From a virus (lineage: Duplodnaviria; Caudoviricetes): a stretch of 30,235 bases of DNA. The notes below the pieces were generated by a model that did not search any database, was not told where the DNA came from, and saw only the letters and a program-made list of their open reading frames with translations. The stretch is taken from IMG/VR virus record IMGVR_UViG_3300014208_000105, positions 1 to 30,235 of that record, one strand, 5' to 3'. This document shows, in pieces, positions 22,665-30,171 of this stretch. The translations under genes were made by a program, and so were the position numbers. Position 1 is the first letter of the stretch; every line of letters starts with the position of its first letter.

Positions 22665-23561
22665 TTAGATCAGCAGCGACTGCAGGGCGGCGTCGACCAC
22701 CTCGGGGGTGATCGGGGTATGGTTGAGCTCCGCCACCCGGGAAGACCGCTTGACCAGCTTGTCCAGGAGCCGGGCGTTGCCGCCGGTCTTTTCGTGGAAG
22801 ACCTTCCAGATCCCGTTCGAGCCGGGCAGGGCCGCCTGCACGATCTCCTCGGTGTCCGTCTGCCGGAGAGGGGTCAGGACAGCCTTGATGCCGACCCGGC
22901 TGTAGAGCTGGGCGTATTCGCCCTTCAGGCCGCGAAGGTTGCCCAGGAGCCGGGGCATCCCCACGAGCAGGACGCCGATGCCGGTGAAGTCGTGCAGCCG
23001 CCGGATGATCTCCAGGGACTTGTATTTCAGGTGCTCGGCCTCGTCGATGATCAGCAGCCGGCCGGAGCCCTTCAGCTTGGCCACGGCCTCGCTGAACAGA
23101 TTGTGCAGGGATCCGGATCCGCACAGCCCCACCTTCTTGTGCAGCTCCACGATCAGGTCGTTGGCCGTGATCGTCTCGGAGACCTCGATCAGGATCACGC
23201 CTGCCTTCTCCCCGGCATACTTCGCCGTGGCGGTGGTCTTCCCGAGCCCGGCATCGCCGATCACCACGCCAATCTCGCCATCCACATGGCAGATGTCCGC
23301 GACCTCGTAGACCTTGGTCGCCACGCTGGTCCGGACAAACCCCGCCGGCAGCTTGTGTTCCCCGCGCGCGGCCCGTTCCTTCTGCAGTTCGAGGTATTTC
23401 CGGACCGACGCCTCGATCTTCTCGACGTTGCCCTTGTAGGAATGATTGAGCCACTGGCTGATGGTGGCCGTGGACAGGCCCACCCCCCGGGCCACCTTCG
23501 TGATGCTGAGGCTGTGGGCCTCCATCTGGGCACGCAGTTCCGTGCGCAATTCGTTGTTCAT
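22665..23561 (-). CDS. MuB-like AAA+ transposition ATPase
   Basis: N-terminal HTH, Walker A GDAGLGKT, Walker B LLIIDEAE, QLYSRVG. True start ATG 23561 overlaps the transposase stop. Confidence 0.95.
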   Translation of the reverse strand: MNNELRTELRAQMEAHSLSITKVARGVGLSTATISQWLNHSYKGNVEKIEASVRKYLELQKERAARGEHKLPAGFVRTSVATKVYEVADICHVDGEIGVVIGDAGLGKTTATAKYAGEKAGVILIEVSETITANDLIVELHKKVGLCGSGSLHNLFSEAVAKLKGSGRLLIIDEAEHLKYKSLEIIRRLHDFTGIGVLLVGMPRLLGNLRGLKGEYAQLYSRVGIKAVLTPLRQTDTEEIVQAALPGSNGIWKVFHEKTGGNARLLDKLVKRSSRVAELNHTPITPEVVDAALQSLLI

Positions 23562-25783
23562 CGGTCTTCCTCCTGTTGACGTTGTGATTCGCGTTCGTCC
23601 GCATCCCGGTCGGATGCGAGCGCATAGAGCTTTTTCTTCGGCTTCACGATGGGAACGATCTTCGCCAGGTCGCCCTTCCCGTCCTGATCCTGGCGGGCCC
23701 GCTCGGTGACGACCCGGTCCATTTTGGTGTTGGCGAGCTGGACCATCGGAATCTTGGCCGGCGACGAGGCCGTGGGGATCTGCGGGGAAGCGGCCCCGGC
23801 CCCGGTGATGATCGCCGGCCCGGAACCCGCGGCGGCCAAGCGTTTCCCAGCCGACGCGGCCAGGGCGGAAACAGCCGTTTCCAGGTAAAACTGCTGTTCC
23901 TGGGACGAAGTGGCTTCCAGGCTCTTGATGCGGGCCTTCATGAGCTTCTTCTCGCGACCCTTGCGCGCGGACTCCTCGTTGAGGGTCTGGCGGTCCACAT
24001 CGGAAGCGGCCAGGACCGGCACGGTCCTCACCAGGGTTGCCTGGGCGATGTAGGAATCGTCCTTGGCGTCGAACACCCAGGCGTCCTGCCAGGAATCCGG
24101 GTCGCGGCGCATGTAGACCAGATCGCCCTTCCGGCCCGCCATCCACTCGCCCCAGTAGAACGAATCGAGGCGGCTGTCCCGGACCCCGTTCCGACCGATC
24201 TTGACCGGGTTGGATGCGCGCATGCAGAACAGCTTCAGGGCATCGCGGCGCACTTCCCGCCGGGTCACGAATTCTTCCCCCCACGCCATGTCCGGGGACC
24301 GCCCGCGCAGGGCCCGCCCCTGGGAAGGAAGGCAGTTCAGCACCTTGGTGATGAAGCCTTCCAGGCCGGCCTTCAGCTCCTCGAAGGAGACCAGGCGACG
24401 GCCCTTGACCTCTTCGGCCAGGCGTTCTGGCCGTTCGATCACGTCCCCGCCGCGATACCCGGGAAAGGTCTTGGAAAACCATTCCTTGATCTTGAGGAAA
24501 TCGCGCTCGATAGGCTTGGTCTGGGCGTTGTAGGGGATCGCGAAGTGGGGCTGGACGTTCAGGAGGAGGAGCATCGGGGAAGCCTTCGCCTCATCCACCT
24601 GGACCTTGTGCAGGGTGGTCCGGCCGCCGGCGAAGTCGCGGCTCCGGTAGTCCTTGCCGTTGTCGATCAGGACGTGCTTCGGCAGGCCGAAGGCCAGGGC
24701 GGCCCGATAGAAGGCCTGGAAGATGTGGTCGCTGTTGGGCGGTTCGACGTGGATGTGCCAGCCCAGGAACTTCCCGGTTTTGAGGCAGCGCCAGGCGGTC
24801 AGCCAGGGGGCGGCGACGCGGTCCCCGCTGGTGGTCAGGACGTCGATCTGGGCATGATCGGAAACCCAGGCCTCCCCGGCCGGAAGGCTCTCGTAATCGC
24901 GCACGATGTGCGCCTCGAACTTGCGCTTCCAAGCGCTATAGCCGTAACGGGCCCGATAGATGGTCCCCTCGTCGAACCGCTGGGACAGAAGCCGCCAGAA
25001 GGCCACCACGCTGGGGAAGTTTTCGAGGGTGATCTGCTTGGTTTCATGGGTGGCGAAGCCGAAGGTCATGCGCCAGACGTGGGCCAGGGAAGGTCGCTGT
25101 TCCTGGAGGTAGTGATTGGAAAAGAACTCGAACCAGGGTTGATCGATGGTCGAGCCGCCCCGGCGGTTGCCCCACTTGGCCAGCAGGCCGGCCCGGCCTT
25201 CGCTGGCGACCGTCTCGCGGGCGCGCAGGATGGCGGGGTAGCTGGTCGACAGGTCCGGGTGCTCGGCGTTCCAGGAATCGACGAAACTCTCCAGGGCCCG
25301 CCCGAAGAGGCCCTCGGATGCCTGCAGGACCAGGAGGTATTTGTTGGCTTTGCGGCGCTGGTAATCGGGTGCCCGATCGTAGACGTCGGCGTCGATCTCG
25401 GCCTGGTTCGGAACGCTTTCCATGTGGTGGGCGGGAAGATCCGGCGCGGCGATCGCGGCGGGGCTCGAGGGGGTGGTGGTCGGCTTGGCCTTGGGGAAAA
25501 AGGAAACGACCTGGTTGGCCGGCCGGGCCGTGGGGGCTGCTGCAGCGACGGGTGCAGCAAGAGCGGGGACCGCGACCGGGGCGGCCGTGCCGTCCCGCTT
25601 CATGAGAGCCACGCGGGTTTCCGGTGGAAGGCTGGAAAGATGGTATTCACGCCCGCCGCCCCGGCCCTGGCGCAAGCGCCATTTCCAACCCTCCCGGGAT
25701 CCCATATCCCGGACCCGCCGCTCTGACCCGGGGACCCCGGGCAAACCAGCCAGTTCAAGGGCTGTCCACCACTCTTTGACCAC
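23558..25783 (-). CDS. MuA-like DDE transposase
   Basis: N-terminal Mu-type DNA-binding domain (WWTALELAGLPG.P...RQGRGGGREYH.SSLP); catalytic WVSDH, IDNGKDY and KPIERDF; Mu transposase C-terminal beta domain. Confidence 0.97.
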   Translation of the reverse strand: MVKEWWTALELAGLPGVPGSERRVRDMGSREGWKWRLRQGRGGGREYHLSSLPPETRVALMKRDGTAAPVAVPALAAPVAAAAPTARPANQVVSFFPKAKPTTTPSSPAAIAAPDLPAHHMESVPNQAEIDADVYDRAPDYQRRKANKYLLVLQASEGLFGRALESFVDSWNAEHPDLSTSYPAILRARETVASEGRAGLLAKWGNRRGGSTIDQPWFEFFSNHYLQEQRPSLAHVWRMTFGFATHETKQITLENFPSVVAFWRLLSQRFDEGTIYRARYGYSAWKRKFEAHIVRDYESLPAGEAWVSDHAQIDVLTTSGDRVAAPWLTAWRCLKTGKFLGWHIHVEPPNSDHIFQAFYRAALAFGLPKHVLIDNGKDYRSRDFAGGRTTLHKVQVDEAKASPMLLLLNVQPHFAIPYNAQTKPIERDFLKIKEWFSKTFPGYRGGDVIERPERLAEEVKGRRLVSFEELKAGLEGFITKVLNCLPSQGRALRGRSPDMAWGEEFVTRREVRRDALKLFCMRASNPVKIGRNGVRDSRLDSFYWGEWMAGRKGDLVYMRRDPDSWQDAWVFDAKDDSYIAQATLVRTVPVLAASDVDRQTLNEESARKGREKKLMKARIKSLEATSSQEQQFYLETAVSALAASAGKRLAAAGSGPAIITGAGAASPQIPTASSPAKIPMVQLANTKMDRVVTERARQDQDGKGDLAKIVPIVKPKKKLYALASDRDADERESQRQQEEDR

Positions 25784-27776: not shown

Positions 27777-27799
27777 CAGGGCTATGGAAGTTTTTTTCT

Positions 27800-27921
27800 C
27801 GTCCGAGTTTGCTCGCCCGGGTATTCGCCTGGCTCATGGCAAAACCCGCACGGACAGGCAAGTCGGACGCGGTTTGAGAACTCGGACGCCGCCGTCCGAG
27901 TTCGCGAGGGGAACTCGGACG
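27800..27921. repeat. Five copies of AACTCGGACG in both orientations upstream of the repressor
   Basis: 27800-27809 (rev), 27860-27869 (1 mismatch), 27879-27888, 27893-27902 (rev), 27912-27921. Confidence 0.9.
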
Positions 27922-28589
27922 TGGAAGAAAATTTCCCGGGTAGGGTGAAAAAAGTTGCCGAGGAAGTCGGGGGAGGAGCGGAACTCGCCCGAGTTACCGG
28001 CATTTCAAGACGGACCATTGGGTTTTACATGACCGGCGAATCTGATCCATCAAGGGAAAAGCTCATTTTGATGGCTGACGCCGCAAGAGTTTCTGTGGAA
28101 TGGCTGGCTACCGGGAAAGGCCCAATGCGATTGGGGGATGCGCAGACATTAACCCCTCCGCCTGCCGCTCCTGGGTCTGTCCCCATTCCTCTCCACTCCC
28201 TCTCCCCCTCAGCGGGGGCAGGGGCGTTTTGCGAGGGGGACTTCATTGAGGAATGGATCCAGATCCCTCAGGCCATCATCGATTGGATGGCCGTCCCCAT
28301 CAAGTTCCTGTGCCTGACCCGGGTGGCCGGCTCGAGCATGACCCCGACCCTGACGGACGGCGAGCTGATTTTTGTTGACCGCCGCTACGACCGCGTCATC
28401 GGGGAGGGAATCTACGTCCTTCGCTTCGAAAACGCCCTTCTGGTGAAGCGGATCCAGGTCCAACCAGGCGGCGTCCTCCAGATCATCTCCGACAACCCCG
28501 CCTTCCCTCCGTTCTCCGTCTCCCCCAAGGCCCCCCCAGGAGATTTCTCCATCCTCGCCCGCATCGTGTCCCATCTCCGTAAGCTTTGA
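27921..28589 (+). CDS. CI-type repressor (XRE HTH plus peptidase S24)
   Basis: HTH (ELARVTGISRRTI..Y..G.S.P...VSVEWLATGKG), Ala-Gly site SAG, catalytic GSSM.P and VKR; divergent from the early operon. Confidence 0.93.
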   Translation: MEENFPGRVKKVAEEVGGGAELARVTGISRRTIGFYMTGESDPSREKLILMADAARVSVEWLATGKGPMRLGDAQTLTPPPAAPGSVPIPLHSLSPSAGAGAFCEGDFIEEWIQIPQAIIDWMAVPIKFLCLTRVAGSSMTPTLTDGELIFVDRRYDRVIGEGIYVLRFENALLVKRIQVQPGGVLQIISDNPAFPPFSVSPKAPPGDFSILARIVSHLRKL

Positions 28590-28616: not shown

Positions 28617-28952
28617 ATGGAGTATTTTTTTCTGGCATTAGGAATGATCGCAATCTTAGCATTTCTATCCCAGGACAGTGAAAAACAGCGCGAGGAAAGA
28701 AGGGCAGGGCTGTTGTTCAAGTATGGAGACCCAGGAATCGTTGGAAAGATCCTTGACGGAATGGTCTGGATAGGGCAAACCGAAGAGCAATTGTCAGAAT
28801 CAATCGGCTCTCCGGCTGCCGTGGATAGGCTTGAAAAGGTCGGGAAAACAACGGAAGTTTGGAAGTATCAACCCCGTGGAAAAAGGGGTTTCGACCTCAG
28901 GGTGACAGTTGAGAACGGGGTGGTGATCGAGGTTGACAAAAAGTCCGCCTAG
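28617..28952 (+). CDS. Membrane-anchored protein with SmpA/DUF2845-like domain
   Basis: N-terminal TM; IGQTEEQL.ESIGSP...EVWKY...V.VENGVV pattern; directly downstream of the repressor. Confidence 0.6.
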   Translation: MEYFFLALGMIAILAFLSQDSEKQREERRAGLLFKYGDPGIVGKILDGMVWIGQTEEQLSESIGSPAAVDRLEKVGKTTEVWKYQPRGKRGFDLRVTVENGVVIEVDKKSA

Positions 28953-29229: not shown

Positions 29230-29667
29230 ATGGACCCCCTTCTCAACGCTATGGACAAGATTGCCAAACAGGCAATGGACGCAGCAGACGCGAGAGATAA
29301 GGATATCTTGCAAAGGATGGAGGATTCCCAAGAATACTTTGCCGAAAGGCTGGAAGAGTCGGAAGAAGCAATGAGGCAAGCGGTTTTTCAACGCACCGCT
29401 GAAGGAACTGCCGAGTTTTCATTTCAAGAGGTCAAGGAGTTCGAGAAGAACCTTCCGGAAGGCCACGCCGTTGCTCTTTTCATTGGTGGTATCGGCCCTG
29501 TTTTTCTAGAAGAGGTATGCTCTAAGGGGCCTTTGTTGGTCATTTTTCGAGGCAGGGCGAAGAACAAGAAAGTGGTCATTCTCCAGCATCTTTCCCAGGT
29601 TTCCATCACGATGATCGCCGAGAAGACCGACGATCCCAGAAAACCCATAGGGTTCAATGTCTTGTAG
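29230..29667 (+). CDS. DUF6173-like protein
   Basis: AGGAG RBS; FEKNL...AVAL...LVIFRG...ILQHLSQVS...PRKPIGF pattern. Confidence 0.65.
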   Translation: MDPLLNAMDKIAKQAMDAADARDKDILQRMEDSQEYFAERLEESEEAMRQAVFQRTAEGTAEFSFQEVKEFEKNLPEGHAVALFIGGIGPVFLEEVCSKGPLLVIFRGRAKNKKVVILQHLSQVSITMIAEKTDDPRKPIGFNVL

Positions 29668-29868
29668 AAGAAGGTTCAGAGGCCGGATTCAAACCGACTC
29701 AGGGGCTCCTTGGACGAGGGCTACTCGCACCCCAAAGAATTCCCCATGCTGCTGACCAGGCTTTCAGCTTATCCAACCCGCCACGACCGGGAGCGTGCAC
29801 TCCCCTGGGCCGGGAGAAGGACAGACCTTGGCTCTTGGGTGTCTCACCACGCCGCTCCAAACCTTCTT
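29668..29868 (-). ncRNA. Candidate ~200-nt structured RNA with tRNA-like closing stem and T-arm
   Basis: 14-bp closing stem whose two non-WC pairs are G-U only on the minus strand; T-arm GUCGG-UUUGAAU-CCGGC abuts the 3' strand; promoter places the TSS at the first stem base. Confidence 0.7.
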
Positions 29869-29874
29869 GTCTTG

Positions 29875-29903
29875 ATAATATCAGCCGCCTAAACGGCCGT
29901 CTA
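29875..29903 (-). promoter_or_regulatory. Extended -10 promoter for the ncRNA
   Basis: TAGACG-N17-TATTAT with TG extension (TGATATTAT, 29883-29875); A at 29868 is 7 nt downstream. Confidence 0.65.
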
Positions 29904-29976
29904 ACGCCGATTTCATGCAGTTTTTCAGGCCTTTATCAGCCTGCGACCACATTTTCGGGGGAGCCTTTGAAGAAAC

Positions 29977-30171
29977 TGTCAATCCATCTGAAAAAAACCG
30001 GCAAAACCGGCAGATCCTGGCCAAAAATGTCAAACCATCCAAGGTTGAGCCAAATCCGCTTCCGATCGCAAGCCAGGGCCAATTTTTCTTTCCCCCCGAT
30101 CTCTCAAACCACCTGAAAAACTATACTAAGGCCCAAACAGCGGGCCAAAGAGCCACCTGTCCCCTGTTTCA
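29977..30171. repeat. Putative transposase-binding end repeats and prophage terminus
   Basis: TGTCAATCCATCTGAAAAA (29977), TGTCAAACCATCCAA (30028), TCTCAAACCACCTGAAAAA (30102), partial GCCACCTG (30152), then ...TTTCA at 30171. Confidence 0.65.

What the first reader, a model, noticed from the sequence alone, without database searches (positions are those of the whole stretch)
29668..29903. Promoter-driven ~200-nt tRNA-mimic RNA next to the prophage end
Seen (minus strand): extended -10 TGATATTAT puts the start at A29868, the first base of a 14-bp closing helix, AAGAAGGUUUGGAG / CUCUGAACCUUCUU. Its two non-WC pairs are G-U on this strand only. The 3' strand is directly preceded by a 5-bp/7-nt T-arm, GUCGG-UUUGAAU-CCGGC. 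The 5' strand is followed by a D-loop-like CGGCGUGGUGAGAC. Where the anticodon arm would be there are ~140 nt of further helices (GGGAGU-GCAC-GCUCCC inside CGGCC/GGUCG; UUCUCC/GGGGAA; CGAG-UAGCC-CUCG). There is no CCA, no anticodon loop and no convincing ORF. Established: acceptor/T-arm stacking and D/T-loop contact form the tRNA elbow, which tmRNA and bacterial Y RNAs mimic. This element is too short and lacks the alanine acceptor for tmRNA, and its arm order differs from YrlA. Inference: a phage tRNA-like ncRNA with a cargo domain, e.g. a decoy for tRNA-targeting defence nucleases, an RNase P/Z-processed regulator, or an RNA partner of the convergent DUF6173-like gene. I cannot exclude that it belongs to an existing Rfam family.
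Basis: partly seen in the sequence, partly recalled or inferred. Interest (0 to 1): 0.85.

Follow-up and report, generated by a model that had tools for sequence, protein, structure and literature searches.

The report
Anticodon-less tRNA-framed RNA in Mu-like phage
Near one end of an uncultured Mu-like phage sits a 201-base stretch with a tRNA's end stem and T-arm but a 138-base insert and no anticodon; it likely makes a stable RNA of a widespread, uncatalogued phage family that resembles phage T5's unexplained RNA2, and its job is untested.

Summary
Core observation confirmed. Minus strand 29868-29668 has a 14-bp closing helix stacked on a T-arm (3 of 20,000 shuffles give even 7 bp), behind a sigma70-like promoter match. 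No Rfam or ARAGORN hit. The element is not unique. Its 5' motif marks a phage family with fixed tRNA-like ends and unrelated inserts of about 30-250 nt. A model built without the window scores it 46.9 bits and scores T5 RNA2, annotated 'tRNA-like stable RNA with unknown functions', 33.8 bits, above every T4/T5 tRNA. It is not tmRNA, Y RNA or tRNA. Best reading (inferred): a natural tRNA scaffold, an independently transcribed accessory RNA in the variable left-end slot of a Mu-like phage. The partner-of-DUF6173 idea found no support; the anticodon-nuclease decoy idea is weak. The insert has no homologue found and is no more structured than shuffles (z +0.4). This scan has noted this RNA class before on other DNA; ten paper searches found no description.

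The parts
29875..29903 (-). Predicted sigma70-type promoter: -35 TAGACG, 17-nt spacer, extended -10 TG-A-TATTAT
   Evidence: Consensus scan, 9 of 12 matches plus TG; not tested for function
29668..29868 (-). 201-nt tRNA-framed RNA gene (predicted transcript)
   Evidence: Fold; family model R1 46.9 bits over all 99 positions at 29674-29862, window not in training
29855..29868 (-). 5' strand of the 14-bp closing helix; the inner 7 nt (29861-29855) correspond to a tRNA acceptor 5' strand
   Evidence: Sequence; pair probabilities
29837..29854 (-). CG linker plus the family's D-like arm (5-bp stem, 6-nt loop in relatives; one C-C mismatch here)
   Evidence: Motif in 44 viral loci; folds; probability 0.20 for the family register in the window
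29699..29836 (-). 138-nt insert where the anticodon and variable arms would be; three predicted hairpin domains; no homologue found
   Evidence: (z +0.4)
29682..29698 (-). T-arm, 5-bp stem and 7-nt loop with U54, U55, U56, A58
   Evidence: T-stem pair changes in relatives
29668..29681 (-). 3' strand of the closing helix; no encoded CCA
29230..29667 (+). Convergent 145-aa DUF6173-like gene whose stop codon abuts the helix; a neighbour, not shown to be a partner
29904..30126 (.). Likely phage left-end region (AT-richer); putative phage/host junction near 30126
   Evidence: Contig ends in two runs; GC step; exact terminal bases not established

Best explanation
The element has a tRNA's acceptor helix and T-arm around a 138-base insert, and is likely a stand-alone accessory RNA gene whose tRNA-like frame would let host tRNA-handling enzymes trim and protect it, so that it would accumulate as a stable RNA carrying the insert as cargo. 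Shown: the frame, its recurrence in many phages with unrelated inserts, its match to T5 RNA2, and its position in a slot that holds a different cargo in the closest Mu-like relative. Inferred: transcription from the extended -10 promoter (probably also in the lysogen); 3' trimming with or without CCA addition; RNase P cleavage near 29862/29861, or no 5' cut at all if the 14-bp helix simply seals both ends; a trans-acting role. No target is identified.
For: Frame far above chance (3 of 20,000 shuffles). Of 40 distinct viral loci found by the 5' motif alone, 11 carry a perfect T-arm plus an acceptor of 6 or more pairs, against 4 of 1,560 swapped controls. In 16 relatives 7 of 8 acceptor pairs and 3 of 5 T-stem pairs change on both sides (these rows were chosen for pairing, so the swap control is the fairer test). 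Inserts range from 27 to 254 nt with no common sequence. Model R1 finds the window (46.9 bits) and T5 RNA2 (33.8 bits; best T4/T5 tRNA 22.5), and nothing in 55,277 nt of other phage DNA. T5 RNA2 is annotated as a stable RNA and is kept over 80% of its length in 418 phage records. The nearest same-strand ORF downstream is a doubtful 77-aa frame antisense to the DUF6173-like gene, which favours a free RNA over a leader. The closest relative by transposase (56% identity) holds a DUF4041/T5orf172 gene in this slot and no R1 hit. Engineered RNAs built from acceptor, D- and T-arms with an insert in place of the anticodon stem-loop are recognised by E. coli factors and protected (PMC3753655, passages).
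Against: No expression data. The insert folds no better than shuffles (z +0.4; family mean -0.9, 10 of 38 below -2) and no homologue was found to test it. The D-like stem has a mismatch and U replaces C56, so the elbow that RNase P reads may not form. The paired leader and trailer could block RNase P or RNase Z. Only 3 of 37 family members have a promoter-like site directly upstream (0.5 expected), and some sit between operon genes such as terminase and portal, so the family as a whole may often act in cis. The engineered scaffold keeps a single hairpin at the insertion site; here the insert is multibranched.
Confidence: 0.5

Rival explanations
1. Decoy or inhibitor of host proteins that read the top half of tRNA (acceptor end, T-arm), such as CCA-end-modifying toxins or tRNA-sensing defence effectors; the insert would be secondary.
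For: What is conserved is the acceptor plus T-arm, not the insert. The gene sits in an accessory slot. Toxins that inspect the acceptor stem and modify the CCA end exist (FaRel2, abstract start only).
Against: No anticodon loop, so anticodon nucleases have no site. Encoded CCA is rare: 1 of 38 after a 7-bp acceptor, 2 of 38 after an 8-bp one. T5_123 (deletion 29191-32442) is still sensitive to PARIS (10.1101/2024.01.02.573894, passages); by coordinates it keeps RNA2 (my inference, assuming the same numbering).
Confidence: 0.2
2. Cis-acting processing signal: the frame is a cut site in a longer transcript, here releasing or stabilising RNA antisense to the convergent DUF6173-like message.
For: Relatives lie in gaps of phage operons, one between terminase and portal, one after recT. 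No terminator-like site follows the element. The neighbour's stop codon abuts the helix.
Against: The element has its own promoter-like site and no convincing same-strand gene downstream. A 138-nt insert is not needed for a cut signal. No DUF6173 among 44 ORFs beside family members.
Confidence: 0.15
3. RNA partner of the DUF6173-like protein (an RNA-protein module).
For: Adjacency; weak Atlas structure look-alikes include WYL-domain clusters, all with TM below 0.5.
Against: 0 of 44 neighbouring ORFs of family members match DUF6173; no R1 hit beside 2 of 2 phage loci with relatives of the protein; GC differs (RNA 0.60, gene 0.50).
Confidence: 0.05
4. A decaying or passively carried copy of the family, no longer functional.
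For: C-C mismatch in the D-like stem, two G-U pairs in the acceptor, unremarkable insert folding; absent from the closest relative's slot.
Against: Promoter match, 14 consecutive pairs and an intact T-arm are all kept, and a C at that D-stem position recurs in intact relatives L059 and L061.
Confidence: 0.1

Closest known systems
Phage T5 RNA2 (AY543070.1 32959-33083, annotated 'tRNA-like stable RNA with unknown functions')
   Same: 8-bp acceptor ending in G-C on the T-arm, CG linker, 5-bp D-like arm, insert without anticodon arm, A before the T-arm, no encoded CCA; full-length R1 match at 33.8 bits.
   Different: Different D-arm sequence, unrelated 71-nt insert, lies in a tRNA cluster of a lytic phage. 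The window's RNA has a 14-bp helix and a 138-nt insert, and lies in a Mu-like contig with no tRNA gene.
Phage T4 RNAC and RNAD (species 1 and 2 RNAs; NC_000866.4 70908-71171)
   Same: Small stable phage RNAs of unknown role (PMC3014915 and PMC9697503, passages); RNAC ends in a T-arm and stacked helix.
   Different: RNAC matches R1 only in its 3' 93 nt (25.6 bits) without the D-like arm; RNAD does not match.
tmRNA (SsrA)
   Same: Same order of parts: acceptor 5' strand, D-like region, large insert, T-arm, acceptor 3' strand (recalled; tRNA domain plus mRNA-like region described).
   Different: 201 nt against 347 nt for A. aeolicus tmRNA; U3-G70 instead of G3-U70; C at 73; no ARAGORN or Rfam call.
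Bacterial Y RNA YrlA
   Same: Phage-borne tRNA mimic with D- and T-like arms; one member is cut by RNase P and receives CCA (PMC4201824, passages).
   Different: In YrlA the acceptor-like stem-loop is closed and lies between T and D arms, and the gene lies within 4 kb of Ro60. Here the acceptor is the open terminal helix and no TROVE gene is on the contig.
Engineered tRNA scaffold for recombinant RNA (PMC3753655)
   Same: Acceptor, D- and T-arms kept, anticodon stem-loop replaced by a payload. A 'works like' analogy only.
   Different: Synthetic; canonical D-arm; payload on one hairpin.

Membership tests
T5 RNA2-type tRNA-like stable phage RNA | Terminal acceptor helix stacked directly on a 5-bp T-arm | tested here: met
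T5 RNA2-type tRNA-like stable phage RNA | Two-base linker then 5-bp D-like arm | tested here: inconclusive
   Motif present but 4 of 5 pairs and probability 0.20 in the window; loop sequence differs from RNA2
T5 RNA2-type tRNA-like stable phage RNA | Insert in place of an anticodon arm | tested here: met
   138 nt, no 5-bp/7-nt arm in the fold, no tRNA call
T5 RNA2-type tRNA-like stable phage RNA | Sequence homology of the insert to RNA2 | tested here: not met
   No blastn match to any phage record; nhmmer of the insert over all fetched loci, T5 included, gave no hit below E 0.05
T5 RNA2-type tRNA-like stable phage RNA | Accumulates as a stable RNA | not testable with these tools
   No RNA holder listed
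tRNA (RF00005) | Cloverleaf with anticodon arm | tested here: not met
tmRNA | G3-U70 alanine acceptor with A73 and CCA (features recalled) | tested here: not met
   U3-G70, C73, no CCA
tmRNA | Tag reading frame and pseudoknot ring, about 350 nt | tested here: not met
   201 nt; no ARAGORN or Rfam tmRNA call
Y RNA (YrlA) | Order T-arm, closed acceptor stem-loop, D-arm | tested here: not met
   Order here is D-like arm, insert, T-arm
Y RNA (YrlA) | Ro60/TROVE gene within 4 kb | tested here: inconclusive
   None on the contig, but the contig ends 367 nt beyond the element on one side
Viral tRNA-like structure (criteria in PMC10424219) | Interacts with a tRNA-specific enzyme (synthetase, RNase P, RNase Z, CCA-adding enzyme) | not testable with these tools
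   Criterion read; needs bench assay

The most novel reading that the evidence does not exclude
Phages use one constant tRNA-like frame as a natural expression scaffold for interchangeable functional RNAs, and this copy is an RNA-only cargo gene of a temperate transposable phage that acts in the lysogen, for example in phage-versus-phage or phage-versus-host defence, by presenting a tRNA top half together with its own 138-nt effector domain.
Probability: 0.2. Interest if true: 0.8.

Novelty: new variant of a known kind. Interest (0 to 1): 0.48.

Why it matters
T4 and T5 carry tRNA-shaped stable RNAs whose role is still recorded as unknown. This copy shows the same frame working apparently alone: its own predicted promoter, no tRNA cluster, in the cargo slot of a Mu-like phage. 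That argues these RNAs are mobile genes in their own right and not just by-products of tRNA-array processing. As a self-contained cassette of about 240 bp it is easy to express, and T5 RNA2 gives a cultured model. The class is missing from Rfam 15, so annotation pipelines do not see it.

Tried and rejected
Rfam 15 at gathering and E-value thresholds, window and 49 locus scans: no family over any frame except ordinary tRNAs nearby. ARAGORN: nothing in the window; it does call some short relatives tRNAs with odd anticodons. Close homologues: none in phages or plasmids by blastn, none with the same insert in viral or metagenome pattern scans. The 6 cellular-genome matches to the 19-nt motif show no T-arm frame by inspection. 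Antisense-regulator idea: longest perfect complement elsewhere in the window is 13 nt, reached by 30 of 100 shuffles. Hidden ORF: a 53-aa frame spans the RNA without a spaced ribosome-binding site; rejected as unconvincing. Mu-end feature: no R1 hit in 2 related viral records, 1 distant one and 4 cultured Mu-like left ends. Expression: no RNA holder listed. PF19670 in 3 family-bearing records: nothing, but the control also did not ring, so uninformative. The structure prediction for the neighbour protein did not finish, so its fold rests on the Atlas model. My early note that L007 ends in CCA was wrong: that CCA lies inside the stem. His-like G-1:C73 identity considered: present here, but position 73 varies across the family, so not a family feature.

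Full report
Setting. The window is a virus record of 30,235 bases, about 61% complete, held in groundwater metagenome runs. It is a Mu-like transposable phage: Mu transposase at 23558-25783, GemA, Mor, Gp36 and capsid genes on the minus strand, and a CI-like repressor at 27921-28589 on the plus strand. Contigs of two runs from two studies stop at 30126, and GC rises from 0.48 (29869-30126) to 0.61 beyond, so the phage end is probably there. Three of four cultured Mu-like records begin with TGT and the window does not show this at that point, so the exact terminal base is open. Between repressor and end lie a 111-aa ORF, a 145-aa ORF (29230-29667, +) and the element. The closest relative by transposase (L103, 56% identity) has a 466-aa DUF4041/T5orf172 gene next to its repressor instead, so this is a variable cargo slot.

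The observation. On the minus strand 29868-29668 the first and last 14 bases pair, with two G-U pairs, and a 5-bp/7-nt T-arm directly precedes the 3' strand. Pair probabilities are 0.95-1.0 for 13 of 14 closing pairs and 0.95-0.98 for the T-stem; the minus strand folds at -85.7 and the plus strand at -67.7 kcal/mol; 3 of 20,000 shuffles give a T-arm with 7 or more stacked pairs. A promoter-like site (TAGACG, 17 nt, TG-A-TATTAT) ends 7 nt before A29868. Rfam 15 and ARAGORN find nothing here.

A family. The exact T-arm occurs in 11 viral loci; one (L005) also has the window's 16-nt 5' motif and a 10-bp acceptor of different sequence, and one (L007) lies in a tRNA array. The 5' motif alone gave 44 viral loci. 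After removing 4 duplicates, 11 of 40 carry a perfect T-arm with an acceptor of 6 or more pairs starting exactly at the motif, against 4 of 1,560 controls with swapped upstream flanks. The other 29 failed this strict test; some score with the model, others may be stand-alone hairpins or chance. A two-ended pattern added 30 loci. On 16 chosen relatives, 7 of 8 acceptor pairs and 3 of 5 T-stem pairs change on both sides; those rows were picked for pairing, and the D-like stem was fixed by the search pattern, so its invariance says nothing. Inserts run from 27 to 254 nt (of its 24 frames I dropped 2 as mis-paired) and do not align.

Model test. R1 was built from the 16 relatives without the window or T5. 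It hits the window once, at 29674-29862, 46.9 bits, E about 2e-9 (E-values rough). It gives 0 hits at E 0.1 in 55,277 nt of other phage DNA and at most 13.6 bits in 9 Mu-like or DUF6173-related loci. In the T4 and T5 tRNA regions the top hit is T5 RNA2 (33.8 bits, full model), then the 3' part of T4 RNAC (25.6), then real tRNAs at 22.5 or less. GenBank annotates RNA2 as 'tRNA-like stable RNA with unknown functions'; 418 phage records cover 80% or more of it. For family statistics I used 40 of the 50 hits at 33.5 bits or more (10 left out, 5 of them equal-score repeats), plus the window and RNA2, giving 38 distinct elements: encoded CCA in 1 of 38 after a 7-bp acceptor and 2 of 38 after 8 bp; A before the T-arm in 29 of 38; C56 in 20 of 38 and U56 in 15; a promoter-like site just upstream in 3 of 37 (0.5 expected), the window among them; insert z below -2 in 10 of 38. 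A few rows are out of register by a base, so these counts are approximate. Four of 5 tested family-bearing records have no tRNA gene (four of the five are under 65% complete). Neighbours vary: terminase/portal, RecT, ERCC4, HTH, mostly unknown; 0 of 44 ORFs match DUF6173.

How it likely works. The conserved part is the tRNA top half. RNase P removes tRNA leaders, and CCA-less precursors are cut by RNase Z and extended by the CCA-adding enzyme (PMC10424219, passages). Engineered RNAs of the same plan are recognised and protected in E. coli (PMC3753655, passages), and one Y RNA with a 7-bp acceptor is cut by RNase P and gains CCA (PMC4201824, passages). I infer that the frame makes a stable RNA and that the insert is cargo. 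Two caveats: the G18/G19-to-55/56 contacts that hold the elbow are not guaranteed with U56 and a short D-like loop, and the extra 7 pairs could leave the RNA uncut and simply sealed. No antisense target exceeds shuffles. The decoy rival survives only for enzymes that read the acceptor end; T5_123 stays PARIS-sensitive (10.1101/2024.01.02.573894, passages) while, by my reading of coordinates, keeping RNA2, and T5_Mos lacks that region yet is a propagated variant, so RNA2 seems dispensable in the laboratory.

The neighbour. The 145-aa protein is DUF6173-like: PHROG 3306 at E 5e-9, Atlas structure match to a DUF6173 cluster at TM 0.61/0.71, and 2 of 5 tested homologues pass the Pfam cut-off, though it does not itself. 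Nothing links it to the RNA except adjacency.

Novelty. The kind is known by annotation (T5 RNA2, T4 RNAC) with role unknown (PMC3014915 and PMC9697503, passages). Ten full-text searches found no description of the wider family or of a copy in a transposable phage; the library lacks most subscription and older papers, including the original T4 and T5 RNA work, and I read no supplements. Earlier notes of this scan describe the class on other DNA (51 and 215 findings hold the search words) and pointed me to the T5 annotation, which I then tested; none matched this sequence or a Mu-like end. Verdict: a real, likely expressed member of an uncatalogued phage RNA family, a new variant in D-arm sequence, insert and solitary setting, with function untested. 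Interest 0.48.

Noticed in passing
L014, L022, L024, L036, L044, L051, L053 (motif sites); L033 about 1160-1185: In 7 of 44 viral loci the 5' motif is preceded by TGA and has no strict T-arm frame; similar TGACA-stem-GAGAGA-stem hairpins occur nearby in L033. The D-like arm may also exist as a stand-alone phage hairpin motif.
   Followed up: no
L097 593-697, 783-901, 1016-1143; L033 1193-1283, 1526-1717; L013 975-1084, 1119-1224: Tandem copies of the frame with different inserts in one contig.
   Followed up: partly
L031 1192-1295: A 104-nt frame fills the short gap between terminase and portal genes, a good test case for a cis-processing role.
   Followed up: partly
L033 1194-1284, L079 589-668, L080 594-672, L091 593-672: ARAGORN calls short family members tRNA-Ser, -Thr or -Asp with odd anticodon positions; some annotated phage tRNAs may be these RNAs.
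   Followed up: no
L057 5960-6084 (T5 RNA2): The insert of T5 RNA2 holds a second T-loop-like hairpin; the window's insert has none.
   Followed up: no
window 29976-29995 and 30101-30120: 20-nt direct repeat (85% identical, 125 nt apart) near the left end, possibly transposase-binding sites; a terminator-like hairpin at 30011-29997 (minus) may insulate the RNA promoter.
   Followed up: no
window 27788-27933: Several short inverted and direct repeats with a shared core between the repressor and the early promoter (27776-27748, 11 of 12 matches): likely operators.
   Followed up: no
window 28617-28952 (+): Low-GC 111-aa ORF with an N-terminal hydrophobic stretch and a weak DUF2845 match (E 0.007): a second cargo gene behind the repressor.
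   Followed up: no
L010 50-115, L011 190-255: Very short (about 65 nt) acceptor-plus-T-arm elements with the window's exact T-arm but a different middle.
   Followed up: no
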